Shown: one piece after another, positions 4,598-57,091 of the stretch
Numbering within the stretch: the first letter of the stretch is position 1
Layout: every line of letters starts with the position of its first letter
Source: Naegleria gruberi
Taxonomy: Eukaryota
NCBI GenBank assembly: GCA_000004985.1
Contig: GG738855.1
Direction: 5' to 3' (one strand)
Length of the DNA stretch: 64,000 bases
The notes under the pieces: model-generated
Seen by the model: only the letters and a program-made list of their open reading frames with translations
Database searches by the model: none
Told to the model about the DNA's origin: nothing
Position numbers and translations under genes: made by a program

Positions 4598-6607
4598 ATG
4601 TCGGTTAGGACATCAATAACCGAGCCCAATTTCCATGACAATTTCATTACAACTCTAAATGATTCATCATCATCTTCAAGTCGTCCAGCCACAACAACAA
4701 GTATAGATTTATTCATGAGAGGAGAACCAATTCTTGTAGATTTGCTTTTACATCATGATGAGGATATTTGTCTGCAGGATATTGACGATCATCAGTCGGC
4801 GATGGATAAAGAAATGTCGACAATTACGAATAATCTTCCTCATCAACAACAACATATTATCGGTCAACAACACGAATTATCATCATCACCTGTTGTTGCT
4901 ATTACTTGTACTCCTCCACTACTAACTAATTTAGACATGACATTCAATTATGACAAAACTGATAATCAGCAGCAGCAACAAGAAGTAAATACAACTAATA
5001 GTAATAATATTGTATTTAATAATGATATAGTAATTGTGGAAGATTCTAATAGCAATAATAATAATAATAATAATAATCGAATGAACATGGTGAATATTGT
5101 TGATGGTAGTTCTATTATATTAAATAATACACCTCAACTCTTTATTGAAACAAAACAAGATAATTCTAAAGGGTTAGTTCTACCTTTAAATTTATCTAAT
5201 GATAATTCTCCAGTCAATTCAGAGATTTCATCGGCTGTGAGTGTGACCTCCTATGGGTCAAGTCTTCCATCGACTCCAAATAATTCCCATCAATCTTCAA
5301 GCTTTTTCAATTCATCAACAACAATGGTAACCAATGATGAAACTGATTGGGAAATTATTGTAAAGAATAGAAATGCTCAACAAATAGCACGTATGGCCTC
5401 TGCTACTGGTTTAGTATTTCATAATAATCTATCCTCCTCACCATCAACTACTTCATCTTTATCGTCTTCAAATCTATCAAATCAACATCATCACTGTGTT
5501 ACCACTCCAAAATTGGATACATCTTCTTTAAATGAAACATCATTCAGAAAGAACTTTATCACTCGACATAGTTCTGATCAGAGAATTGCAATCTCTAGTA
5601 ATAATAGTAGTGGTAGTACATGTAATGAAGAGTCCACATTTGGTACTGGGTCAAGCAAGCAGAGAAGCAAGACAAGTTTTTTGTGGGGAAGATCTTTAGA
5701 GAGGAAGAATTCTGCAAACAGCAATACTTGTATGCCTCCAATAGAGGATTCTAAGAATGCTCAACTCGATATTTCGGCCTCTTCAATAGAGAGTAGTGCC
5801 ACCAATGTTGCATCAGATGAGAGCTTTTTAGAGTTTTTACAGAGTGTAGATTGTCGAATGAATGTTATTTCGATAGAGTCAATTGATTCTGCCTCTACAC
5901 AAGACACATCATCCAAAGAGACTTTGAAAAAGTCCAAATTTTGGGATAGACTCAAGATTATCAAAAAGGCAATTAAGAAACAGCTTATGGAAGAAGAAAA
6001 ACCTAACAGCACCCAACAAACACTTCACACTCAACAACCATCTAAACACTCGAGAACCAATAGTATTACAAGTAATCCACATACACTTGATTTGGATTGT
6101 AAAAGTACATCATCTTCCTCTCTGACAAGCGTTAGTGATGAAGACAAGTATACGGTTGTTATTACTAAACCAGCAATAGTCTCTAATAGTGCAATTAGAT
6201 CTGCTGAGGATGAAATGAGACATTGTCTTAATGATCCAATTTGTTTACAATTATTTGATGAATTTTGTTGTCAGGAATGCTCTCAAGAGAATTTACTTCT
6301 TTGGAAGGAGCTCAATAAGGTCAAGACTAATTTCAAGAAACTTTCAGATAAGAGAAGAAGCAAAACCCTTCGAACCATTCACTCGAAATTCTTCTCTGAG
6401 AAGAATGAAAATTTCGATGTAAATGTTAGTGGTCGAACTAAAGTTCAAATAGAGGAACAAGCAAATAGCAAGAGAGTTAGTTTAGCATCTGGCGCACACG
6501 TTTTAAATAGCTTACAACGAGATTGTATCAACAATTTATGTGACAGCTTTTCGAGGTTTATTCTCACTGAGGATTACAAACTATGGAAACAAAACTTTGA
6601 TAGGTAA
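4598..6607 (+). CDS. Asn/Gln/Ser-rich protein with C-terminal RGS (regulator of G-protein signalling) domain
   Basis: 669-aa ORF. Motif LQLFDEFCCQECSQENLLLWKELNKVK fits the RGS core (F..F...E.S.ENL.FW). Long low-complexity N-terminus including an (AAT)n-encoded poly-Asn tract. Confidence 0.6.
   Translation: MSVRTSITEPNFHDNFITTLNDSSSSSSRPATTTSIDLFMRGEPILVDLLLHHDEDICLQDIDDHQSAMDKEMSTITNNLPHQQQHIIGQQHELSSSPVVAITCTPPLLTNLDMTFNYDKTDNQQQQQEVNTTNSNNIVFNNDIVIVEDSNSNNNNNNNNRMNMVNIVDGSSIILNNTPQLFIETKQDNSKGLVLPLNLSNDNSPVNSEISSAVSVTSYGSSLPSTPNNSHQSSSFFNSSTTMVTNDETDWEIIVKNRNAQQIARMASATGLVFHNNLSSSPSTTSSLSSSNLSNQHHHCVTTPKLDTSSLNETSFRKNFITRHSSDQRIAISSNNSSGSTCNEESTFGTGSSKQRSKTSFLWGRSLERKNSANSNTCMPPIEDSKNAQLDISASSIESSATNVASDESFLEFLQSVDCRMNVISIESIDSASTQDTSSKETLKKSKFWDRLKIIKKAIKKQLMEEEKPNSTQQTLHTQQPSKHSRTNSITSNPHTLDLDCKSTSSSSLTSVSDEDKYTVVITKPAIVSNSAIRSAEDEMRHCLNDPICLQLFDEFCCQECSQENLLLWKELNKVKTNFKKLSDKRRSKTLRTIHSKFFSEKNENFDVNVSGRTKVQIEEQANSKRVSLASGAHVLNSLQRDCINNLCDSFSRFILTEDYKLWKQNFDR
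5054..5077. repeat. (AAT)n microsatellite encoding poly-Asn inside a CDS
   Basis: Sequence aataataataataataataataat. Typical coding microsatellite of dictyostelid genomes. A similar tract lies at about 23390-23410. Confidence 0.8.
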
Positions 6608-11085: not shown

Positions 11086-11550
11086 CTCGTTTGTTTTATT
11101 TGAAATAATAATGTGTGTATATATATTCGAAGAAAGTATTACTCGAGGTGTTTTTGTAGAGCAAAATTTCTTCTTCTTGAAAGATAATATTATATCTTGT
11201 GATTTGGCAAACGGTTTTTGAATTTGATTTTTTTAACCGGAATGTTGGTGATGATTGTTAATTTGCGCCAAGTTTACTTGTGCTATTTTGTGTGGTGGAA
11301 AAATGAGAGTGCTGACACTAAACATGGACAAACCAAATGGGTTGTTTGATGCTAAGAAAGTTATTGAACTCTAACAATTAATTGGCTATTCGTTTCGTTT
11401 AGTTTATTTGATGGGATAACAAAATTTCTGCTTTTAAACAGTTTGAAAATCGATCGACTTAGACAATCATTAGTATTTAATGAGTTTCATGGATTTTCAT
11501 TCAAATATGTGTGGGGGTCATGGCGCAGTCGGTATTATTAATAGATTTTA

Positions 11551-11585
11551 GGGTAGGTAACGCTCTCAATCTACCTCAACGTAAC
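11551..11585 (+). repeat. R-repeat copy 1 (GGTAGG(G)TTGCGCTCTYAAG..CTCAACGTAAC family)
   Basis: Sequence gggtaggtaacgctctcaatctacctcaacgtaac. One of four direct copies inside the tRNA-Met insertion. Contains a ggtag/ctacc stem. Confidence 0.6.
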
Positions 11586-11615
11586 TTTAAATATAAACTT
11601 TATTTATTTTTAGAA

Positions 11616-11647
11616 AGGGTGGTTTGCGCTCTCAAGCAATGTTGCTC
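11616..11647 (+). repeat. R-repeat copy 2 (divergent, lacks CAACGTAAC tail)
   Basis: Sequence agggtggtttgcgctctcaagcaatgttgctc. Confidence 0.5.
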
Positions 11648-11685
11648 TTTAATGTACTGTTGCTATACTTTACATTGAATTGAAT

Positions 11686-12338
11686 TTATTGATTAATTAT
11701 TTCAACTTTTGAAGATTTCTTACTATTTTTCATACTATTAATAATTTTTAATTTTCTTTCTTTTCTTAATTCTTCATCATATTCAATTTCTTCTGTATAA
11801 AAACTAATATCACTATAATTTAAATTTGATTGTTTGGAATAATTTGGAAAATAATTATTTTCTGATTCATTAAATTCTTGAATTGTTTTTGATATTTTTT
11901 CAATTTCATTATCAATAAATTCATAAATTTGTTCATGTTTTTTAAAATTAATTTTCATTGATAAAATTAAATTTAAAAATAATAATCCTTTTCTAAAAAT
12001 AGATAAGGTAGGGTTGCGCTTTCATTAATACTCAACGTAACTTTTAAAATAAAAAACTTACCCAAAAATTTTACATTGAAAATTATCATCTTCAGATTTA
12101 AAATTAATTAAATTAATTTCATCTGATAAATTTGTTTCATCAATATGTTCTCTAAAATTTTCATTTGTTGTAAAAATTAAAAATGAATTTGAATTATGAA
12201 TTATATCTTCTCCTAATTCATCTGAAATTTCACTAATTCTAATTATTTGTAAATTTTTAATTATTGAATATAATCTTCCAAAATTAATACAAATTGGTGA
12301 ATGTTTACAATTTGATTTAATTATAAATGTATCATTAT
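11686..12338 (-). CDS. Spliced gene for a small Lys/Asn/Glu-rich protein nested between the tRNA-Met halves on the opposite strand (function unknown)
   Basis: Minus-strand exons complement(12062..12338) and complement(11686..11992), joined by a canonical intron GTAAGT...TTTTTAG (11993..12061). Splicing gives ...NFQCKIFGGKGLLFLNLILSMKINFKKHEQIYEF... in one frame. A possible mini first exon ATGACAG|GTAATT at complement(12582..12588) would place the tRNA 3' half and R4 inside intron 1 (12339..12581). That first exon is speculative. Confidence 0.45.
12006..12041 (+). repeat. R-repeat copy 3, lying inside an intron of the minus-strand nested gene
   Basis: Sequence aggtagggttgcgctttcattaatactcaacgtaac. 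It sits 13 nt from the GTAAGT donor (minus strand) of intron 11993..12061. Confidence 0.6.
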
Positions 12339-12356
12339 CTTTTAAATAATAAAATT

Positions 12357-12390
12357 AGGTAGGGTTGCGCTCTTAAGTATATCAACGTAG
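12357..12390 (+). repeat. R-repeat copy 4, abutting the tRNA-Met 3' half
   Basis: Sequence aggtagggttgcgctcttaagtatatcaacgtag. Its CAACGTAG tail runs directly into the tRNA D-stem GCGCG. Confidence 0.6.
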
Positions 12391-12443
12391 CGCGTAGGTC
12401 TCATAATCCTAAGGTCGTGAGTTCGATCCTCACTGACCCCAAC

Positions 12444-12449
12444 TTTTTT
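12444..12449 (+). terminator. Pol III oligo-T terminator after tRNA-Met 3' half
   Basis: A tttttt run starts 3 nt after discriminator A. Confidence 0.6.
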
Positions 12450-12988
12450 GCTAGTTGGATCTAACAAATTCTAGAATAGCACCATTTATTGAAACAGCTT
12501 GCCATACAAATTCTCTATCTCTTTTCAAGGCATTAATCAAAATTTTGTGGTTCAAGTTTGATCGATTCCTATGCTAATTACCTGTCATATCTAAATTGCT
12601 CTCGAACAAACCTCAATACTAACCAATCCTTGAAGGAGTTCAATGTCATTTCTCAATCTTTCAAGAAATAAACTGAATGGCTAATCCAGATGATTTCAGT
12701 CTTTCAATCACTTGATGCATATGTAAACAAGAACCAGTTCCGTCTTCTAAAGATTTATATCCATTAAAGCAGGTCTCAAGGCTGAATCACCTTAAAGGTG
12801 AAACAGTCCCTGAGCTTTAATACCCATTAGTATAATTACTTGTTCTCAATCTTGTTTTTATTAATTTGCAAGGTAACATCTTCAATTCATTAGATCCATA
12901 TGAATATGATCTTGGTCTAGAATCTTATTATTCTCTGAGAAGGATTTATGTTTTGCACGATTTTGCCTTAATTGCAACATACACACCA

Positions 12989-13071
12989 GCCCGCGTAGCA
13001 GAGTGGTCAAATGCGTAAGACTTAAGATCTTATCCCGAATGGGTTCGTGGGTTCGAACCCCACCGCTGGCA
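12989..13071 (+). tRNA. tRNA-Leu(UAA), type II with long variable arm
   Basis: Acceptor GCCCGCG/CGCTGGC with one C-T mismatch. D-stem GCA/TGC with loop GAGTGGTCAAA. Anticodon stem TAAGA/TCTTA and loop CTTAAGA (TAA). Variable arm CCCGAATGGG. T-arm GTGGG-TTCGAAC-CCCAC. Discriminator A. T-rich terminator follows. Confidence 0.7.
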
Positions 13072-31328: not shown

Positions 31329-34300
31329 TTATGCAACATTCTTTGCCTTCTTCATTCTGGCTCGTATGAAAAGTGCAATCACAACAGCAAGAAGAACACC
31401 AGCAACGCACACGACAACTACTCCACCAACTGATGAGGCTACTACAGCAATTAACACTGTGTTGTCGTTCACTAGGATTGGTTCTGAGTTTTCTGGTTCT
31501 CTTCCCTTTGTGTTTGCCTTTTTATAGTTTTGGTCAATTACTGCAAAGGAAGTCAAGTGACTAGTTCTGCAACTCATTGAAAAAGTAACAATATTTGAGG
31601 AGGGAGAAAATTTCAAATCATTAATTGTCGTTTCTATGCCGTCTGTCTTCCACTCCTTGTCTGAATTATCAAAAAACATGCAGGTGAAATTTAATAACGC
31701 ATTTGTATCTTTGGCAGTTGACAAATTGGAGAAGTACAATTCGATAGGTTCTTCCAGGTCAACTATTGGAATTTTCTCATCATTGATATTGAACATGGAA
31801 ATTGTTACCACTGAACTAATTGCATAAGCTTCCTCACTTGAAGGACCACTTGAAGAAGAAACTGAGCTAATCACCTTTACCACCTCAGTTGAATTAAATC
31901 CTCTTTCATTGATAAGATAATCTTTCACTGCTGTAGGAAAATTGACTGTTACTGAACTTCCAAACTTTGTGAACGTGATATTCTGGTTATTAACCTCTTT
32001 TAACGAATAAATCAATTCTTTCGTCTCAATATTTCCATTTTGTCCACCACATTTGAAGGTGTTATTGACCAATTCTAAAGTTCCAATACAGTAAGGAGTG
32101 GTACAATTTCTACCAATCCATCCTTCCTTACAAATGCAATTATCAGGTCCAATACATGTTCCTTGATTACAAACTCTTTGATCAATCGAAGGAATTCCAA
32201 AACAAATTGGAACAGAACAGTCCGAACCAGTATAATTGGCATTTCAGAGACAAGTATTTAATCCAACACACGAACCATGTGAAGAACAAACTGCCTCATT
32301 ATTTTCTGGTATTTCATTACATGAAACCATTTGACATTCCGAGCCAAAATACCCAACCTCACATTTACAAATGTTGAATGATTGGCATGAGCCCTTTCCT
32401 CTGCAAACTGATGAAGAATTACTTGATTTTCCATAGCAAGATGTGAAATTACATTGAGGACCTGAATAACCTTCCTTACAAAGACACGAATCCTTATTGA
32501 AACAAGTTCCGTGTGAAGAGCAAGCAGTCAACTCATTCTTTCCAATACCAAAACAATAGAACTGATCACATTGGTTACCATAATAACCTAATTTACAAGT
32601 GCAGGAATTAGGCGAAGAGCAAATTCCATTTGATGAACAAGTAGAAACGTTTCTATTAGAAAGTCCAAAACAAATTGGAATGTCACATGCAACACCAGTG
32701 AAATTTGCATTACATTCACAAGTATTGACATTGACACATGAGCCATTTCTAAAATTACAAACTGAAGAGTCAGTGGATGGGATTGAAAAACAAAGAGGAA
32801 GTTGACATGAATTTCCTGTAAAATTTGGATCACATTTGCAAGTGTTCAATTCTGTACAATTTCCATTTCCAGAACAAACTGAACTATTCGAATTCTTCAA
32901 ACCAAAACAATAGAAATTTTCACAATTATTACCAAAATAACCTGAATTGCAGTCACAAGTATTGAACCCGCTGCATTTTCCTCTTCCTGAGCAAACATTA
33001 GTTTCATTATTTCGAATTCCATAACAGGAAGTCAACTCACAATTAGATCCTTCATAGAACTCATTACAAATACACTTATTAGGTGAAACACACGTTCCTT
33101 TCCCACTACAAACTTTAGAATTGATGGCAACAATACCATTACACATTTGAATATCACATTCTGGTCCTCCATATCTATTCGAAAGTGAACAGTTACATGT
33201 ATTATATCCTACACATGTTCCATTTCTATTACAAACGTTTGGATCATTAGAAAGTTTCCCAAAACATACTGGAAAGCAAGGAGAAGGTGTTCCATCATCA
33301 TTACAAACTAATCTATGAAATTTCTTAATGGAAGTTCCATCAATGAATAGAAATTGATTATTATCTATCATTGTAATACCCATTATGCTTTTTAGAGTTG
33401 GAATAGTTCCATCTGGAAGAATAGCTTTTCCTCCAATACCAACAAGTGTTGAGATTATTCCATTGTCAGGAGAAACCATACGAATCCTTGAATTGTCTGT
33501 ATCTGCCACATATAAAGTGCCATCTGGAGCCAAAACTGCCGAATGTGCTCTATTTATCGATGCACTATATAATTGTTAAAAGAAACATGTATTCGATTTA
33601 GACTAAAGTGATGTTAACTTACCTTTTAGCTGGACCGCCATCTCCACTAAATGAAAATGATCCACTCCCATCTCCAACCAATGTTGAGATAATATCTGTC
33701 GCTTTGCTAACAACTCGTATAGCTCCACTGAAAGTGTCAGCAATCACCAAATCATCTTTTTCACTCAATGAAATTCCATAACTGAAATCGATTTGAGTTT
33801 GAGAGCCAACTACTTGACCATCCCCAGAATAACCTCTTGTTCCACCAATATAGGTATATATAAAACCTGTTGTTGGTTTGATATTTCTAATTCTGGCATT
33901 ATTGGTATCAAGAATGTAGACTAAACCAGAGGTATTACTGTAAGCAACAGAGTAAGGGGTGTCAAGTTTAGCTGCAATGGCTAGCTCTCCATCTCCAGTA
34001 AATCCTGCTGATCCAGTTCCTGCAATAGTTGAAATAAACCCATTAGAAACCTTTCGAATTCTATTGTTATAAGAATCTGCAATATAAACATCACCTTTGA
34101 ATGGATCTACAGAAACACCTCTTGGGAAATACAACTTTGCATTGATTGCCAGCACTCCATCTCCAGAAAACCCTCCACTTCCAGTTCCGGCTATGGTTGT
34201 AATCGTACCATTCAATTAATCTTTCGAATTTTGTGAGCATTTGCATCTGCAATATATAATCTCACCATTAGCATAGGCAATAGCATGTGGAAATAAAAAT

Positions 34301-46515: not shown

Positions 46516-48732
46516 CATTATCGGCAATATTCATCCTACTTTTTTACACTATTCTATTCGCAAGGAATTTACAGTTCTTTTACTTGTTTTCACATTTCAT
46601 CAACCGATGCAAAAGTTTGCTCTTCTCGAGGGTCATGCCTTTCTACCAACAATTGCACATGTTCTACAGGTTTCTACGGAAGTAATTGTCAGTGGAGTGA
46701 TGATCCAATACTAAACGAACCTACTTTGGATTTATTTGGTTTAGGAATTGGAATTGTTAGACGAAATGTTTCGAATCCAACCTATGATTTGATGATTTCT
46801 GCAACTAAATTAACTTTTCTTGATTCTAAATTGAGAGAATTGATGGGATGTTCATTGGAAAGTGAAAATTGTTATTCTGTAATTGAATTTAAATGGTCAA
46901 TTAGTATGAATGCAATTAGTTTGGATTCTTCTAATGGATTTGTGATGGCAAATTTATCCCAAGTTGATGTATTGACATTTTCTCCAGTCATTCAATTTCA
47001 AAGTAGCAAAGGTTTGATTTCTGGCAGTCAGTTGATTACTTCTATTGAACTAAAGACGAAATATTCTAACGTTAACATGAGTACTAAAGGATGTACTCTA
47101 ANAAGGAACATCACATTGGAAATTGAAAATACAGTAACTTGTCTCTGTTCACACACAACCATGTTCTCTACCTTTATTGAACATAACAGTACATTTGCTG
47201 TCAAAGTCAAACAACAGCTGTCAACGCTATATTATGCTCAAATAGCTTTTGGTGTATTCTATTTTATCATTTCCTTAATAATATTAATTCTATTATTTGC
47301 TTTTAGAAAGGAACAACCAATTTCAAGTAGATTAGCAACTCCATTTATGGGAATGATAGCCCTATTGGTAGAAAGTTGTTTAATTTACATTACTCAGAGA
47401 GGAATTTTAGTGAATCAACTGAAATCTAGTAATAATCAAATGTGGGAGAGTGGAGATAATGATTCCAATATTATTGCAAATATTGTTACAATTTTTGTAA
47501 ACTCTTTAAATTTAACAGCAATATTTTGCTATGTTATTCAAGTGGTTAGATTTGAATTGATGAAATTCATGTACAAATTAATTCACAAGACGAAAGGAAA
47601 TGAGTCTAAAAGTGATATAGTATTGAAATCTATTAGAATATCAACATCAACAAGTTTATTCTTACTCTTGACAACTTTATTTATGAGTTTTAATCTGGTT
47701 TATTGGACAATTTGGGTTGTTTTGAGACGAATTAATGTAATTGAGCCTTCAACTTACACTTACATTGTTTCCATTTCGTATACTGTCATAATATTCTTCT
47801 TGAGTTTAGTAATTGCAACTGTATTAGTATTCGATTTTATTATAACAATTAAAGAAAAGAAAGAAGAGAAGAAGAATGAGCCCACAGATTCAACAGTGAA
47901 AGAAAATCTGGTAAAGAAATCAATCAAGATGAAGAATTCACTCTCAAAGGTTTATGATTTTTTCATTAGTTTAGATGAGCCACTCTATTTCAGAGTCGAA
48001 ATGATTCTCTACCTAATATGTTTCGTATTTCTAATAGTGAATCAAGTGATTGGACTCATTGGATTACCATATCGATTCATAGACGAGGAAAATTACAAGA
48101 CAGCTCTCCAATATGATGTAATTTCATTTATATTTGAAGTTTTATACGTTTTCACCTATATTCTAGTATTTGGTGGATATGCTTTGTTGATCCTACTCAT
48201 TTACAAAGTAAAGATTTGGAGAAAATTTTCAAAGAATGGAAAATCAAAGCAGGATGATGGAATGTTGAAGAATAAGGAACTTTTACTTGTGATTAGGAAT
48301 GAGGAATCGTACGAATCATTTGAAAAGTTTTGTGAAAAGGAATTTTCCTTAGAGAATCTTTATTTACATTCAATATTGGAAAAACATTCAAAAATAGTGA
48401 ATGGAGAGACATTTGAAGGGTTATCAACTCTACTTAATCAAATATTTGAAGGATTCATCCAATCAGGAGCAACAAATGAAGTGAATATTCCAAACAGTTG
48501 TAGAACAAAGATTGTCAACCTCCACAAAAAATATGGTTTTGAAAAGAAGGATTCAGATTTAAAGAATGTTGATTTAGAAGAAGTGAGACAGGCATTCTTT
48601 TCATTAGTTCAACAAGTATTTGTCAATCTTGGTGACACCTTCTCTCGATATTCTCTAACAACTGAATGGAAAGTTTTCAAAAAGGCAATTGAATTGAAAG
48701 AACACATTACGGAGAAAGCAAACTTGTATTAG
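46516..48732 (+). CDS. EGF - GPS-like - 7TM receptor with C-terminal cytoplasmic RGS domain (adhesion-GPCR-like 7TM-RGS)
   Basis: Main ORF 46726..48732 (668 aa; ambiguous base n at 47102). Seven hydrophobic helices: YAQIAFGVFYFIISLIILILLFAF; FMGMIALLVESCLIYIT; IIANIVTIFVNSLNLTAIFCYVIQVV; STSLFLLLTTLFMSFNLVYWTIWVVL; YIVSISYTVIIFFLSLVIATVLVF; MILYLICFVFLIVNQVIGLIGL; VISFIFEVLYVFTYILVFGGYALLILLIY. GPS-like TCLCSHTTMFSTF lies ~25 aa before TM1. C-terminal RGS core ESYESFEKFCEKEFSLENLYLHSILE. The same frame is open upstream to ~46516 and encodes an EGF module VCSSRGSCLSTNNCTCSTGFYGSNCQ. A signal-peptide-like MHSLSAIFILLFYTILFA lies in a neighbouring frame (46509...), so the 5' end is unresolved. 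Confidence 0.6.
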   Translation, partial: HYRQYSSYFFTLFYSQGIYSSFTCFHISSTDAKVCSSRGSCLSTNNCTCSTGFYGSNCQWSDDPILNEPTLDLFGLGIGIVRRNVSNPTYDLMISATKLTFLDSKLRELMGCSLESENCYSVIEFKWSISMNAISLDSSNGFVMANLSQVDVLTFSPVIQFQSSKGLISGSQLITSIELKTKYSNVNMSTKGCTLXRNITLEIENTVTCLCSHTTMFSTFIEHNSTFAVKVKQQLSTLYYAQIAFGVFYFIISLIILILLFAFRKEQPISSRLATPFMGMIALLVESCLIYITQRGILVNQLKSSNNQMWESGDNDSNIIANIVTIFVNSLNLTAIFCYVIQVVRFELMKFMYKLIHKTKGNESKSDIVLKSIRISTSTSLFLLLTTLFMSFNLVYWTIWVVLRRINVIEPSTYTYIVSISYTVIIFFLSLVIATVLVFDFIITIKEKKEEKKNEPTDSTVKENLVKKSIKMKNSLSKVYDFFISLDEPLYFRVEMILYLICFVFLIVNQVIGLIGLPYRFIDEENYKTALQYDVISFIFEVLYVFTYILVFGGYALLILLIYKVKIWRKFSKNGKSKQDDGMLKNKELLLVIRNEESYESFEKFCEKEFSLENLYLHSILEKHSKIVNGETFEGLSTLLNQIFEGFIQSGATNEVNIPNSCRTKIVNLHKKYGFEKKDSDLKNVDLEEVRQAFFSLVQQVFVNLGDTFSRYSLTTEWKVFKKAIELKEHITEKANLY

Positions 48733-53407: not shown

Positions 53408-56400
53408 TAGTGTCATCACAGACTAAACCTTTAGATAATAATCAAAGTGGTTCTGGAAATGACCNCAGTTTCATCACAAACTAAACCCTTGGATAACAAC
53501 CAAGGTGGTTCTGAAAAGAACCTAGATGCTATTCTTCACGCCATCACTTCATTGGGTGAGAGAATTAAACATCTTGAAGCAGTTCCACCCATCCTTCAAG
53601 AAGCTGATCAACTTGATGACAACTCTGATGAGGATTCTGCTGAAGATTCCACTGGTAAACATTGGGGTATGTCAACAATCAAGGAGATTAGAAGACACTA
53701 CGAAGTTGGCGACAGATTAGCCGATGGAGATGTCTTAAGTTTTGTTTCAGCCAAAACTCTTCGTCGTTATCAAACCAATGATGCTCTTTTGAATAGAGTT
53801 CAATCATTAATGGCTAGATTTGAATCCGTTATTCATAATCATCGTACTCATCCCCGTTTGCAAGAAATCCAATCAAAGGGCTTGCAAAAGATGATGGAAA
53901 TGTTGCATTTGAAATCTAGACTACTCCATTTCGCTTTAAGTCACCCAATGAACGTTGCTAACATCATTGAAATCACAGAATTAGTTTATCTTCTCTGTGA
54001 GGTCGAGAAAATCTTCTTGGAAGAAGGTTTGTTTGATAGTAATTTTGAGGTTGCCACCAATTTCATTCAACCATTCGTACAGAGCAATACGTTCGCTGAC
54101 ATAACCGAAAAAGCACGTAGTAAGAAGAGAGAGAAAGCTGTTATCAAGACTGCTTTTGTTGGAAAGATTCAAAAACCCAACAAAATGAAAGAGAAGTTGA
54201 ACAAACCCTACACTTCTCAACACAACAGCTACTCTAAGTCTTACAAGAGTAACTCCAATTTTCAAAAATCAGGAGACTCAAAACCAAAGTACAACAACAA
54301 CAACGGTGGAGGATCCTTCAGCAAGGACCTCTGACTTGGTGGGTTGTCGTCTTGGCAAGTTTGTAACTCAGTGGGAGAGTTACAACTTCAACCCATTCAT
54401 AGTGGATTGGATTCGGAATGGAGTTCCAATCTACTCAAATCCCACCCTTTGGAAAGAATTCAAGCAAAGGAAGAATTTCTCTCCAAAGGAGACCTCTTGG
54501 ATGGATCAAGAAATCCAAGAGATGTTGAGTTCCAATGTCATCGAACTTGGAAACAAATCTACGGTACTCAATCCAATAAACATTGTCCCCAAGAAGGGCT
54601 CAGATCAGTTTCGTTTTATTCTGGATCTCAGGAAAGTAAACTTGGGGATCAAGGATACTTCGTTCAAGATGGACAACATTCAAAAATGTTTGAAGTTTGT
54701 TCAGAAAGGAATGTGGGCAACAAAGATAGACCTGAAGAAAGGCTATTTTCATGTTCCCATCAGAGAGAGTCATCGACACCTTCTGGGATTCAAGTACAAG
54801 AGCCTTGTATACCAATTCAAATGCCTTCCATTTGGTCTAAGTCAAGCTCCCAGAAACTTCACCAAGATAATGAAGGAACTAATGACCAAGTGGAGAAAGC
54901 AGGGCATCTTGGTATTCATTTACATCGACGATATATTGATTCTAAGCAACCACAAGGAAACTACCCAACAACACACAGAGATAATCTTGAAAGACCTAGA
55001 AACATTAGGATGGATTATACAGAAGGAGAAAAGTGTGTTGACACCTTGTCAATGCATAGAATTTCTGGGTCTGGAATTGGATTTAATATCAGGTTTGGTA
55101 AAAATTCCACTCAACAAACAAGCCACTGCGATAAAACTGATCCAAGACTTCTTGTCAGCGAACCAACTGAACAGATATGTAGCTTGCAAGAAAGTGGCTC
55201 AGTTTCTTGGGAAGATGGAATTTCTAACCCTATCAAACCATTATTTTGCACCATTTCTGGCTCGTCTTCGAAAGGATATGGTGAAAGTAGTAAACGACAA
55301 ATCCTGGCACGCATCGATGAGAATATTCAGAGGTGCAACCAAAGACCTCAAGATATTGAAAACTCTGATTCAGGAAAACAGTGGAGTTCCATTCGAACTG
55401 AACTCAATGAACCCGATTCGAGTGAATTCAGATGCTTGCCCAACAGGTTATGGAATCGCAGAATCAACCATTACAATTGGAAGATTCAATTCCTCAGAGC
55501 ACATCAATGTCAAAGAGTTAAAAACACTCCTCATTTTCTTCACACAAGCAGATCAATTAAACCTTTATGGTCCTGGTCAAGCATTCGAGATAAGAGGCGA
55601 CAATGTAACAGCAATATCTTATATAAGGAGAGGTTACGGAGTCATCGAAGAACTCTCACAAATAGCCAGAGATCTCTACAAAATTCTAATGAGAAGAAAA
55701 TGGTGGATTTCCAAAGTGATTTATATTCCCTCAAAGGAAAACATTTTGGCGGACAGACTGAGTCGTCTAACAGAATGGAAATCCTCTCAAGAACTATTGA
55801 ATCTAGTTCAGACAGAATTTGGAAAACACCACGTGGACAGATTCTCAACATTGGAATCAACCACAACAATTCAATTCAATTCATGGATAGAGAACGACAC
55901 ATTTCTGAACCCATGGGAACAAAATCTGATGAGCTATTGTGCTCCTCCTCTGGGTCTGATATCTCAAGCTCTAGTTCACTGCATCAAGTCAGGAGCCAAA
56001 GCGACATTTGTGGTTCCAGATTGGCCCTCTTCGATATGGTTTCCAGTCTTGCTAAAGATATCAGAAAGAATGATAACTGTTTCGAGAAAGATGCTTATAA
56101 TAACGCCCTTATCAGAGTTGCAAGACAAGTTCGAGAATTCGAATTTCCTGGTTGTTCAAGTGCATGGCAAGTTATTCAAACAATGAGAGAAATCAGTATT
56201 CTCTCTTCAATAGGTGAAAAAACCTTCAGAACCTACAACAGGATTTATGGTGGTTTTCTTTGGTTTATCAATGTGTTCGATCTTACCATTGATAATCCTT
56301 TAGCTATTGAATATTACATCTCTTACCTTCTGGTTAATGTTCAAGGTTACAAAGCAAATACTGTGCAAGCAGCTATTCAATTCTTTGCTAACCTTGATGG

Positions 56401-57091
56401 CAGAACAATTAATATTTCCGTCTCTTACCCTAAAGTTAAAAAAGGTGTCCTTAAGCTTTATTCACTTTCGGATAAAGTTTCTCTTCAAAGAGATCCGATA
56501 ACAATCAAACATTTGACTGATTATTTGAAGTGCAAAGACAAAGTGGATAATTTCACTTTCCGTCTTACATCTGCTATTCTAGTAATTGGTTTTAGACTAT
56601 TTGCAAGACCTGGTGAGGTTGCGCGACTAAAATGGTCATATATCAAGATGCTTAAAAAAGGAAGAATCAAGATTGATCTCAGTGGTCATAAAACTGACTT
56701 CTTCCTTATTGAAAAACCAATTACTATCGAAAGGAATACTAAAGATCCTAATCTTTGCCCAATTTCAATACTAAAATCATACATGGATTTGGTTAGGAAT
56801 TTCAAAGATGCTGAGTCCCCATTATTTTCCTTCGAAAACGACAAATTCTTTGATTCAGATGGTATTTCAAAAATACTAAAGAATGCAGTGGGTATAGTAG
56901 ATCAAGGCGTAACAGTCTCAGGTCACAGCCTTAGAATAGGTGCTATCACAGAAGGACTCAGAAAGGGTATGTCTACAACTGATCTAATGGTCGGTGCAAG
57001 ACATAAAAAGGAAAAAAATTTATTTCCTTACCTTAGATCTGAAGGCCTAGCTGGCAAGAATTTCACTAACACTCTATTTTCTCTGGACTAA

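What the first reader, a model, noticed from the sequence alone, without database searches (positions are those of the whole stretch)
11514..12441. tRNA-Met(CAU) gene split in its D-loop by an 855-bp insertion
The sequences at 11514-11534 (GGGGTCA TG GCGC AGTCGGTA) and 12389-12441 (GCGC G TAGGT CTCATAA TCCTA AGGTC GTGAG TTCGATC CTCAC TGACCCC A) join into a textbook 73-nt elongator tRNA-Met. Acceptor, D, anticodon and T stems all pair, and a T6 pol III terminator follows. They are 855 bp apart and the break is in the D-loop, not at the canonical 37/38 intron site. The insert is not a simple AT-rich spacer. It carries four ~35-bp direct repeats and a spliced protein-coding gene on the opposite strand. 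Candidate explanations are a tRNA pseudogene disrupted by an unusual insertion, a split tRNA gene, or a tRNA-body-targeting element. TRE-type retrotransposons are known to target near tRNA genes, but insertion within the body and this content are not what is described for them.
Basis: seen in the sequence. Interest (0 to 1): 0.85.

Follow-up and report, generated by a model that had tools for sequence, protein, structure and literature searches.

The report
Naegleria tRNA-Met gene broken by insert
One of the many tRNA-Met gene copies in the amoeba Naegleria gruberi has been cut in two by an 852-855 bp piece of very AT-rich, foreign-looking gene DNA, which most likely just killed that copy rather than creating a new kind of split or intron-containing tRNA.

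Summary
11514-11534 and 12390-12441 join into a clean 73-nt elongator tRNA-Met(CAU), followed by a T6 terminator. The intact window shows no tRNA there. The genome is Naegleria gruberi, not a dictyostelid: two flanking ORFs are 100% identical to N. gruberi proteins.

The insert is compositionally alien, at 20% GC overall and GC3 of 0.01-0.07 against 0.31±0.05 for host ORFs. Its minus strand carries a 5'-truncated orphan coding sequence with no start codon in exon 1 and no credible homologue anywhere. It also carries four copies of a ~51-76-nt repeat; one is a GTAAGT...TAG intron and two abut after the stop codon.

I found no ribozyme, bulge-helix-bulge motif, complementary leader/trailer, terminal inverted repeats or poly(A). 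There are 18 T-runs of at least 4 on the tRNA strand, the first 12 nt into the insert, and the A and B boxes are about 0.9 kb apart.

The GTA at both junctions is also native to the repeat unit at that register, so it reads as junction microhomology. Best reading (0.58): an insertional tRNA pseudogene made by end-joining capture of a gene fragment. Rivals: an undescribed tRNA-body-targeting element (0.17), a foreign organelle/plasmid/virus fragment (0.12), an artefact (0.04), a functional split tRNA (0.03). Copy number could not be checked. Interest is modest.

The parts
11514..11534 (+). tRNA-Met(CAU) 5' part: acceptor 5' strand, D-stem 5' strand and D-loop, tRNA positions 1-21. It contains the whole A-box region, TGGCGCAGTCGG.
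   Evidence: Sequence read. ARAGORN cloverleaf of the join.
11532..11534 (+). GTA, left copy of the trinucleotide found at both junctions (tRNA positions G19 T20 A21).
   Evidence: All four alternative joins give the same 73-mer.
11535..12389 (.). The insert: 855 bp counted with one GTA copy, 20.2% GC.
   Evidence: GC 0.202 against flanks of 0.31-0.35. (most AT-rich island in the window, minimum 0.153, against window mean 0.339 and sd 0.041).
11535..11597 (-). Repeat unit R1' (63 nt). Its 3' end coincides with the insert/tRNA junction. It abuts R2' in tandem.
   Evidence: alignment A1.
11598..11673 (-). Repeat unit R2' (76 nt, GTAAAG...AAAG), starting 12 nt after the stop codon. It is the most diverged copy.
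11686..11992 (-). Exon 2 of the antisense orphan coding sequence, with stop TAA at 11686-11688. An internal ATG at 11958 would give a 90-aa ORF.
   Evidence: period-3 composition; GC3 0.07.
11993..12061 (-). Repeat unit R3', a 69-nt spliceosomal-type intron (G|GTAAGT...CTTATC...TTTTTAG|). Removing it keeps the reading frame. The in-frame stop is the TAA inside GTAAGT.
   Evidence: One search shows the same signals as host-style introns in the window.
12062..12338 (-). Exon 1 of the antisense coding sequence. The frame is open back to 12354 and holds no ATG, so the gene is truncated at its 5' end.
   Evidence: and (GC3 0.01).
12339..12389 (-). Repeat unit R4' (51 nt), ending in ...TTTAAAAG| directly before exon 1. 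Its 5' ~20 nt are missing, cut off at the tRNA junction at the TAC of the conserved GTTAC|GTTGA.
12387..12389 (+). GTA, right copy. The same TAC (minus strand) sits at the same register in R1' and R3', so it is native to the inserted sequence as well as to the tRNA. That makes it junction microhomology.
   Evidence: Alignment A1. Junction sequences.
12390..12441 (+). tRNA-Met(CAU) 3' part: D-stem 3' strand through A73, including the anticodon CAT and the B-box region.
   Evidence: (Rfam tRNA, 25.6 bits, for 12386-12435).
12444..12449 (+). T6 run, the Pol III terminator of the original tRNA gene.

Best explanation
This is one copy of the nuclear elongator tRNA-Met(CAU) gene of Naegleria gruberi that an insertion has inactivated.

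Inferred mechanism: the gene suffered a double-strand break in the D-loop-coding segment, between tRNA positions 18 and 22. The break was sealed by non-homologous or microhomology-mediated end joining, which captured an ~852-bp piece of extraneous DNA.

The captured piece is a random internal fragment of a protein-coding gene from a very AT-biased source. It starts in the middle of an intron-like repeat unit. It then runs through two exons separated by a 69-nt GT-AG intron, a stop codon, and two more tandem copies of the repeat.

The four repeat copies are a short dispersed element of the source gene. One copy serves as an intron, which is introner-like behaviour. They are not related to the tRNA.

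The result is a dead tRNA gene. The A and B boxes are about 0.9 kb apart, and Pol III would stop at a T4 run 12 nt into the insert. Nothing in the sequence would let the insert be removed from an RNA.

Shown: the two halves, the junctions, the composition, the coding signal, and the absence of splicing or transposon signatures. Inferred: the repair mechanism, the foreign or ectopic origin, and the lack of function.
For: Identity of the tRNA:
- The join gives a perfect tRNA-Met with its own T6 terminator.
- No intact tRNA overlaps either half.

Host:
- The host is N. gruberi.
- It is reported to hold 924 tDNAs (PMC2888827), so losing one copy should cost little.

The insert looks foreign:
- It is 20% GC against flanks of 31-35% and is the most AT-rich island in the window.
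- Exon GC3 is 0.01 and 0.07, against 0.306±0.05 (minimum 0.196) for host ORFs.
- It nevertheless shows strong period-3 coding structure and ORFs not reproduced by shuffling.

The insert looks like a fragment:
- Exon 1 has no ATG.
- R4' lacks its 5' ~20 nt exactly at the junction.
- The TAC/GTA at that junction also occurs at the same register in R1' and R3'. That is 3-bp microhomology between source and target, with no target loss. The abstract of PMC2567098 reports microhomology-based repair at numt junctions and no detected deletion in 54% of numt integration events.

No means of excision or transposition was found:
- Rfam finds no intron or ribozyme.
- There is no bulge-helix-bulge motif. 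Pairing between the insert ends has z about -0.9. The best inverted match at the termini is 13/30, equal to the shuffled mean.
- No tract resembling a poly(A) tail is present at either end.
- The tRNA strand carries 18 T-runs of at least 4, the first at 11546.

Not a cloning artefact from bacteria: no match in E. coli genomes, plasmids or phages.

The intron uses the same signals as host-style introns in the window.
Against: - No source locus was found. The protein has no credible homologue in 5.8 billion clustered proteins or 1.84 billion cluster representatives, nor in IMG/VR or GTDB genomes. 'Captured from elsewhere' is therefore inferred, not shown.
- I could not search the rest of the N. 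gruberi genome. Copy number and site specificity of the insert are unknown.
- Both tRNA halves are undamaged and the ORFs are intact. This fits a recent event, but it would equally fit selection.
- A 3-bp direct duplication with no target loss is also what some transposases produce.
- All four repeat copies point the same way.
Confidence: 0.58

Rival explanations
1. The insert is a non-autonomous copy of an undescribed mobile element that integrates at a fixed position inside tRNA genes. This would be a functional analogue of Dada transposons. The repeat units would act as its cis elements and GTA would be a 3-bp target-site duplication.
For: - The insertion is precise, with a 3-bp duplication and no target loss.
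- The coding sequence lies antisense to the RNA gene and there are no TIRs. Dada elements also lack TIRs, and Dada-U6_DR encodes its transposase antisense to its U6 target. Dada elements also occur in tRNA genes of a protist, Perkinsus (PMC3706591).
- The four repeat copies are found only inside the insert and all point the same way.
- N. gruberi has many tDNAs. The Dada authors argue that a high copy number of the target gene lets such elements persist.
Against: - No second copy exists in 64 kb.
- The encoded protein has no transposase, integrase or RT signature, no start codon and no homologues.
- One end is truncated inside a repeat unit rather than being a defined terminus.
- The only terminal or sub-terminal inverted match is a 6-mer.
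- The duplication is 3 bp, not 6-7 bp, and is explained by sequence native to the repeat.
- The repeat core is not significantly similar to the tRNA target (P = 0.06-0.64).
Confidence: 0.17
2. The insert is a piece of organellar, plasmid or viral DNA (a NUMT-like capture). It would hold two consecutive small ORFs separated and flanked by intergenic repeats, and the 'intron' would be a coincidence.
For: - The insert is 79.8% AT. N. gruberi mtDNA is 77.8% AT overall and 79.3% AT in protein genes (PMC4202320).
- The ORF-R-ORF-R-R layout, and two repeat units lying after the stop codon, fit intergenic repeats better than introns.
- The second ORF has its own ATG.
- Mechanistically this is the same end-joining capture as in the best explanation.
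Against: - No match to any protein in the collection, which draws on NCBI and UniRef and so presumably holds the N. gruberi mitochondrial proteins.
- No viral or prokaryotic relative.
- The stop of ORF A lies inside a perfect G|GTAAGT. The two ORFs share a frame after removing exactly 69 nt. The frame stays open 21 codons upstream of the ATG. By my rough estimate the chance of all three together is well under 1%.
- The first ORF has no ATG.
- The repeat units show no hairpin or terminator-like structure.
Confidence: 0.12
3. The locus is a functional disrupted tRNA gene. The 855 nt would be removed as an unusual D-loop intron, or the two halves would be transcribed separately and joined.
For: Both halves are undamaged and together make a perfect cloverleaf with an intact terminator. 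Ectopic tRNA introns, including one in the D-stem, exist in the Cyanidioschyzon merolae nucleus, and ectopic introns also occur in the Guillardia theta nucleomorph (PMC3728597).
Against: - No bulge-helix-bulge motif at any of the four possible junction registers: at most 3 of 4 pairs in the central helix, and only with AU/GU pairs.
- Pairing between the insert ends is no better than in shuffles.
- No group I or group II signature.
- There are 18 T-runs of at least 4 on the sense strand, beginning 12 nt into the insert.
- The A and B boxes are about 0.9 kb apart. From general knowledge of Pol III type 2 promoters, that is far beyond working distances.
- The 3' half has no upstream promoter-like tRNA element of its own.
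- The C. merolae intron whose length is given in the passages read is 22 nt, and from general knowledge such introns are tens of nucleotides long. From general knowledge, they carry no antisense genes.
Confidence: 0.03
4. The insertion is an assembly or cloning artefact.
For: From memory, the public N. gruberi assembly is an older Sanger shotgun assembly. I could not inspect reads.
Against: - Both junctions restore the same tRNA to the nucleotide. A chimera would not do that.
- The insert matches no E. coli, plasmid or phage DNA.
- Its intron signals are eukaryotic.
Confidence: 0.04

Closest known systems
Filler-DNA or NUMT-type capture at double-strand breaks (non-homologous end joining)
   Same: A single foreign fragment is inserted with 0-3 bp microhomology at a junction and no loss of target nucleotides. 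The fragment ends are random with respect to the gene structure of the source. The composition is foreign. The abstract of PMC2567098 reports microhomology-based repair and no detected deletion in 54% of numt integration events.
   Different: The source is not identified and is not the known N. gruberi mitochondrial proteome. The fragment appears to carry a spliceosomal intron, so it looks nuclear or eukaryotic rather than organellar.
Dada DNA transposons (PMC3706591)
   Same: They sit at a defined site inside tRNA or snRNA genes. They have no terminal inverted repeats. Their coding sequence can be antisense to the RNA gene (Dada-U6_DR). They occur in protists with many tRNA genes.
   Different: Dada elements make 6-7 bp TSDs, encode a DDE transposase, have sub-terminal inverted repeats that mimic the target, and occur in many copies. 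Here the duplication is 3 bp, there is no transposase, no such repeats were found, and only one copy was seen.
Ectopic (non-37/38) nuclear tRNA introns of Cyanidioschyzon merolae and nucleomorphs, and archaeal non-canonical introns (PMC3728597, PMC4090602)
   Same: The tRNA coding sequence is interrupted outside position 37/38. An intron in the D-stem is documented in C. merolae.
   Different: In C. merolae and Archaea those introns are defined by bulge-helix-bulge motifs cut by the tRNA-splicing endonuclease; PMC3728597 notes that most Guillardia theta nucleomorph ectopic introns cannot form one. From general knowledge they are short (tens of nucleotides). Here the insert is 855 nt with no BHB, is full of Pol III terminators, and carries an antisense coding sequence.
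Introners (intron-generating transposable elements, as discussed in PMC12768974)
   Same: Near-identical short intron-sized units recur within one gene. Their similarity stops at the exon borders, since the exons are unrelated. One copy has working-looking GT...AG signals.
   Different: Only four copies are seen, all within 855 bp of a captured fragment. Two copies sit in tandem after the stop codon. No family was detected in the surrounding 64 kb of host genome, and no TSDs were defined.
tRNA-gene-associated retrotransposons
   Same: Association with a tRNA gene.
   Different: PMC3706591 says TRE5-A inserts close to its targets rather than at specific positions inside them. From my own knowledge, TRE elements are kilobases long, encode RT and are dictyostelid elements. 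The host here is Naegleria.

Membership tests
Eukaryotic nuclear elongator tRNA-Met gene (original state of the locus) | Cloverleaf with anticodon CAU, A and B box regions, and a downstream oligo-T terminator | tested here: met
   ARAGORN calls a 73-nt tRNA-Met(cat) on the in-silico join. T6 lies at 12444-12449. Rfam scores the 3' part alone at 25.6 bits. A covariance-model score of the whole join could not be run.
Canonical eukaryotic tRNA intron | Intron located between positions 37 and 38, short, in a Pol III-transcribable precursor | tested here: not met
   The break lies between positions 18 and 22. The insert is 855 nt. There are 18 T-runs of at least 4 on the sense strand.
BHB-dependent non-canonical tRNA intron (Archaea, C. 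merolae) | Bulge-helix-bulge motif, or a relaxed hBH/HBh' form, at the exon-intron junctions | tested here: not met
   A scan of all junction registers gives at most 3 of 4 weak pairs in the central helix. The mini-precursor fold shows no BHB.
Split tRNA genes (Nanoarchaeum/Caldivirga type) | Complementary sequences after the 5' half and before the 3' half that pair to bring the halves together | tested here: not met
   The duplex energy of the first 60 nt against the last 60 nt of the insert is -16.6 kcal/mol. Shuffles give -13.4±3.4.
Group I / group II self-splicing introns | Conserved catalytic core detectable by covariance models | tested here: not met
   Rfam at gathering threshold on the whole window and at E<=10 on 11400-12600 found no intron family.
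Dada transposons | 6-7 bp target-site duplication | tested here: not met
   Only GTA (3 bp) is duplicated.
Dada transposons | DDE transposase, or termini shared with an autonomous copy | tested here: not met
   No Pfam hit and no homologues for the encoded protein. Whether the termini are shared with an autonomous copy is not testable without the genome.
Dada transposons | Sub-terminal inverted repeats that also occur in the target gene | tested here: not met
   The inverted-repeat list and the TIR test show nothing beyond a 6-mer. Similarity of R to the tRNA is not significant.
Dada transposons / any site-specific element | Multiple copies at the same position of the same target gene family | not testable with these tools
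   Only this 64-kb window of the N. gruberi genome is available. It holds no second copy.
NHEJ filler-DNA / NUMT-like capture | Junctions with 0 to a few bp of microhomology, no transposon termini, and fragment ends arbitrary with respect to source features | tested here: met
   The TAC/GTA is native to both the repeat unit and the tRNA. R4' and exon 1 are truncated. There are no TIRs and no tract resembling a poly(A) tail at either end.
NHEJ filler-DNA / NUMT-like capture | An identifiable donor sequence elsewhere | tested here: inconclusive
   No donor was found among proteins, viral contigs, prokaryotic genomes, metagenomes, phages or plasmids. The N. gruberi genome, its mtDNA and other eukaryotic genomes could not be searched at the DNA level.
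Introners | Groups of introns with high mutual similarity that does not extend into the exons | tested here: inconclusive
   The four units align at 63% mean column identity and the exons are unrelated. Only one unit is a clear intron, two are tandem copies after the stop codon, and no genome-wide family could be examined.

The most novel reading that the evidence does not exclude
The insert is a member of a so far undescribed family of small mobile elements in Heterolobosea. These would integrate at a fixed site in the D-loop-coding part of tRNA genes, making a 3-bp duplication. Their ~65-nt repeat modules would double as spliceosomal introns, that is, an introner-like module riding on a tRNA-targeting element.
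Probability: 0.1. Interest if true: 0.7.

Novelty: new member of a known kind. Interest (0 to 1): 0.3.

Why it matters
As it stands, this is a clean natural example of a tRNA gene killed by capture of foreign-looking DNA. The host has hundreds of redundant tDNAs. The locus is useful as an annotation note and as a marker of recent DNA acquisition in Naegleria, but it is not a new tRNA biology.

Two things keep it from being wholly ordinary. First, the captured piece is an orphan coding sequence with 98-99% A/T at third codon positions, far outside host usage. It may therefore record a transfer from an unknown AT-rich eukaryote, organelle, plasmid or virus. Second, it carries an intron-sized repeat in four copies, which hints at introner-like elements in that unknown source.

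If a genome-wide search showed the same insert in other tRNA genes, the finding would become a new site-specific element and would deserve much more attention.

Tried and rejected
- **Dictyostelid origin and the TRE comparison.** Rejected. Flanking ORFs are 100% identical to N. gruberi proteins.
- **Fetching the public record or orthologous loci.** N. gruberi genes are not in the contig index. The N. fowleri orthologue (44% identity) sits in a neighbourhood without any tRNA, so no empty-site control was possible.
- **Homology of the antisense protein.** Nothing was found in Pfam, PHROGs, PDB, the 5.8-billion-cluster word search, IMG/VR or GTDB genomes.
- **The exhaustive HMMER hit.** It returned one protein, P0002 (E = 2.6e-12), which proved to be a BRCA2-repeat protein. 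The score sums 13 near-identical repeats. A comparison against a two-repeat stretch of P0002 scores only 27 bits, and the Pfam BRCA2-repeat model does not match the window protein. I rejected the hit as spurious.
- **AlphaFold on exon 1.** It gave pLDDT 44, so no fold search was run.
- **Searching for the repeat unit elsewhere.** There were no matches in IMG/VR. Two metagenome matches are chance hits inside an unrelated coding sequence with no tRNA nearby.
- **Repeat core derived from the tRNA ('GGTAG..GCGC..TCTCAA').** Not significant against shuffles.
- **Repeat units as structured RNAs or terminators.** There is no consensus structure, and z-scores run from -1.4 to +0.6.
- **Repeats as a by-product of exon-plus-intron tandem duplication.** Rejected, because the exons are unrelated.
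- **Spliceosomal removal on the tRNA strand (GT at 11532 to AG at 12390).** Considered by eye. It would leave a 4-nt D-loop without G18/G19, so I rejected it.
- **Other orphan tRNA halves in the window.** None. A-box and B-box pattern matches are at chance level, and the one good A-box match, at 31806, is ordinary coding sequence.
- **Bacterial IS or vector artefact.** No match.
Full report
**1. What is there**

The sequence shows GGGGTCATGGCGCAGTCGGTA at 11514-11534. It shows GCGCGTAGGTCTCATAATCCTAAGGTCGTGAGTTCGATCCTCACTGACCCCA at 12390-12441, followed by T6 at 12444-12449.

Joined in silico, ARAGORN calls a 73-nt tRNA-Met(CAT). The acceptor stem pairs 7/7, the D stem 4/4 and the T stem 5/5. 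The anticodon stem has four pairs plus U31.U39. From memory, that mismatch is a normal feature of eukaryotic elongator tRNA-Met.

On the intact window, ARAGORN and Rfam find only tRNA-Leu(TAA) at 12989-13071. A permissive Rfam scan recognises the 3' part alone at 25.6 bits.

GTA is present at both junctions. The break therefore falls somewhere between tRNA positions 18/19 and 21/22, and the insert is 852 bp plus one GTA. No other copy of either half, of the insert or of its protein exists in the window.

**2. Whose genome**

The adjacent 1162-aa ORF and a 564-aa ORF 3 kb away are each 100% identical to 'predicted protein [Naegleria gruberi]' on a 613,270-bp contig. Other ORFs are eukaryotic: phospholipase B, RGS, RCC1/EGF and TmcB.

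This is the N. gruberi nuclear genome, not a dictyostelid. N. gruberi is reported to have 924 tDNAs (PMC2888827).

**3. Anatomy of the insert**

*Composition.* The insert is 20.2% GC, against 31-35% in the flanks. It is the most AT-rich island in 64 kb, reaching 15% in 300-bp windows where the window mean is 33.9% with sd 4.1%.

*Coding sequence.* The minus strand carries a coding sequence in two parts:
- Part one runs 12338-12062, with the frame open back to 12354.
- Part two runs 11992-11686, ending in TAA.
- They are separated by 69 nt that begin G|GTAAGT and end TTTTTAG|. Removing these 69 nt keeps the frame.

*Evidence that it codes.* The stop-free runs are 111 and 98 codons. The longer one was reached in 0.5% of 2000 dinucleotide shuffles and the second in none. 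Third codon positions are 98% A/T, while first positions carry 19.5% G.

*Codon usage.* GC3 of the two stop-free runs is 0.01 and 0.07. The 27 host ORFs of at least 250 codons have 0.306±0.05 with a minimum of 0.196. The coding sequence did not evolve under host codon usage.

*Truncation.* Exon 1 has no ATG, so the gene is truncated at its 5' end.

*Homology.* The protein has no family and no credible homologue. The single exhaustive-HMMER hit is a BRCA2-repeat protein. Its score is the sum of 13 near-identical repeats, and a two-repeat stretch is worth only 27 bits. I regard it as spurious.

**4. The repeats**

On the minus strand the four 'direct repeats' are whole units of ~51-76 nt (alignment A1):
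- R4' (12389-12339) ends in ...TTTAAAAG| directly before exon 1. It lacks its first ~20 nt.
- R3' (12061-11993) is the 69-nt intron.
- R2' (11673-11598) starts 12 nt after the stop codon.
- R1' (11597-11535) abuts R2' and ends at the other tRNA junction.

The core occurs nowhere else in the window. It was not found in IMG/VR and gave only chance matches in metagenomes.

They are not significantly similar to the tRNA. They are not a by-product of duplicating exon-plus-intron modules, because the exons are unrelated.

R2' and R1' are tandem with no exon between them, so they cannot both be introns. The simplest description is a short dispersed repeat of the donor gene, one copy of which functions as an intron. 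That is introner-like behaviour.

Host-style introns found heuristically in the window are 48-58 nt, GTAAGT or GTATGT...YAG, ~24% GC, and have no such core. The captured intron uses the same signals.

**5. Can the insert be removed or transcribed through?**

I found nothing that would allow it.
- No group I or II intron, or any other Rfam family, was found.
- No bulge-helix-bulge motif appears at any of the four junction registers.
- The two ends of the insert pair no better than shuffles: -16.6 against -13.4±3.4 kcal/mol.
- The + strand of the insert holds 18 runs of at least 4 T, the first only 12 nt in, at 11546. Pol III would terminate almost at once.
- The A-box region is in the 5' half and the B-box region in the 3' half, now about 0.9 kb apart.

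The gene is almost certainly dead.

**6. How did it get there?**

Transposon hallmarks are missing. The best ungapped inverted match at the termini is 13/30, equal to the shuffled mean. No tract resembling a poly(A) tail is present at either end. There is no LTR and no transposase, integrase or RT.

One end of the insert falls in the middle of a repeat unit, and the coding sequence is cut off. The fragment ends therefore look arbitrary.

The TAC (minus strand; GTA on the plus strand) at the R4' junction is also present at the same register in R1' and R3' (GTTAC|GTTGA). It belongs to the donor as well as to the tRNA. That is a 3-bp microhomology junction rather than a target-site duplication. 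The other junction is then a blunt join, and no target nucleotide is lost.

The abstract of PMC2567098 reports microhomology-based repair at numt junctions and no detected deletion in 54% of numt integration events. From general knowledge, tRNA genes are break-prone because they are heavily transcribed replication-fork barriers.

I therefore favour end-joining capture of a gene fragment (confidence 0.58).

**7. Rivals**

(a) *A site-specific element.* Dada transposons show that DNA elements can target fixed sites inside tRNA genes, lack TIRs, can encode their gene antisense to the target, and live in protists (PMC3706591). However, Dada elements make 6-7 bp TSDs, encode a DDE transposase and carry target-mimicking sub-terminal repeats. 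None of these is seen here. Copy number cannot be tested with one window. Confidence 0.17.

(b) *An organelle, plasmid or virus fragment with two small ORFs and intergenic repeats.* The AT content matches N. gruberi mtDNA, at 77.8% overall and 79.3% in protein genes (PMC4202320). The two post-stop repeat units also fit this layout. Against it, there is no protein match. In addition, three things would all have to be coincidence: the stop inside a perfect GTAAGT, the shared frame, and the 21 open codons upstream of the ATG. Confidence 0.12.

(c) *A functional intron or split tRNA.* Confidence 0.03, for the reasons in section 5. Known ectopic nuclear tRNA introns in C. merolae are BHB-dependent and, from general knowledge, short (PMC3728597).

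(d) *An artefact.* Confidence 0.04. Both junctions restore one tRNA exactly, and the insert matches no E. coli, plasmid or phage DNA.

**8. Limits**

I could not search the rest of the N. gruberi genome, its mtDNA or rDNA plasmid, or other eukaryotic genomes at the DNA level. The contig index does not hold N. gruberi genes. The nearest available relative, N. fowleri, has no tRNA at the syntenic place. The donor, the copy number and the age of the event therefore remain unknown.

**9. Verdict**

This is a real and neatly resolved feature. It is most likely an insertional tRNA-Met pseudogene, a known kind of event. The inserted fragment is unusual: an orphan, extremely AT-biased, intron-bearing coding sequence with an intron-sized repeat in four copies.

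Interest is 0.3. It would rise sharply only if the same insert turns up in other tRNA genes.

Noticed in passing
window 54306-57091 (+): A 626-aa ORF has a reverse-transcriptase domain (RVT_1, E = 4e-26) and a Dam-like N6-adenine methyltransferase domain (E = 6.7e-5). It is overlapped in another frame by a 915-aa ORF with no Pfam hit. The region is locally GC-richer (0.40) with strong AT skew (+0.165). RT plus methyltransferase with overlapping ORFs looks like a DIRS-type retroelement. It is unrelated to the tRNA insert.
   Followed up: partly
window 12989-13071 (+): An intact 83-nt tRNA-Leu(TAA) (Rfam 57.8 bits) lies 548 bp downstream of the split tRNA-Met on the same strand. The two form a small tRNA gene pair in the intergenic region between two minus-strand host genes.
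   Followed up: partly
window 4598-6607 (+) and 46726-48732 (+); L003 12350-14641: Two RGS-domain ORFs lie in the window. In N. fowleri the metallophosphoesterase orthologue (44% identity) lies directly next to an RGS gene with no tRNAs between them. In N. gruberi the ankyrin-repeat gene and the tRNA pair sit between the two. Synteny is only partial.
   Followed up: partly
window 12064-12354 (-) against P0002: The exhaustive HMMER search reported E = 2.6e-12 to a 1318-aa BRCA2-repeat protein, purely because 13 near-identical repeats each gave a weak match. This is a reminder that summed scores against internally repetitive proteins overstate significance.
   Followed up: yes
window 11833-11865 (+): A weak sub-threshold Rfam match to the C/D-box snoRNA family SNORD58 (22.2 bits against a gathering score of 42, E = 0.07) lies inside exon 2 of the insert. 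It is AT-rich sequence and probably a chance match.
   Followed up: no
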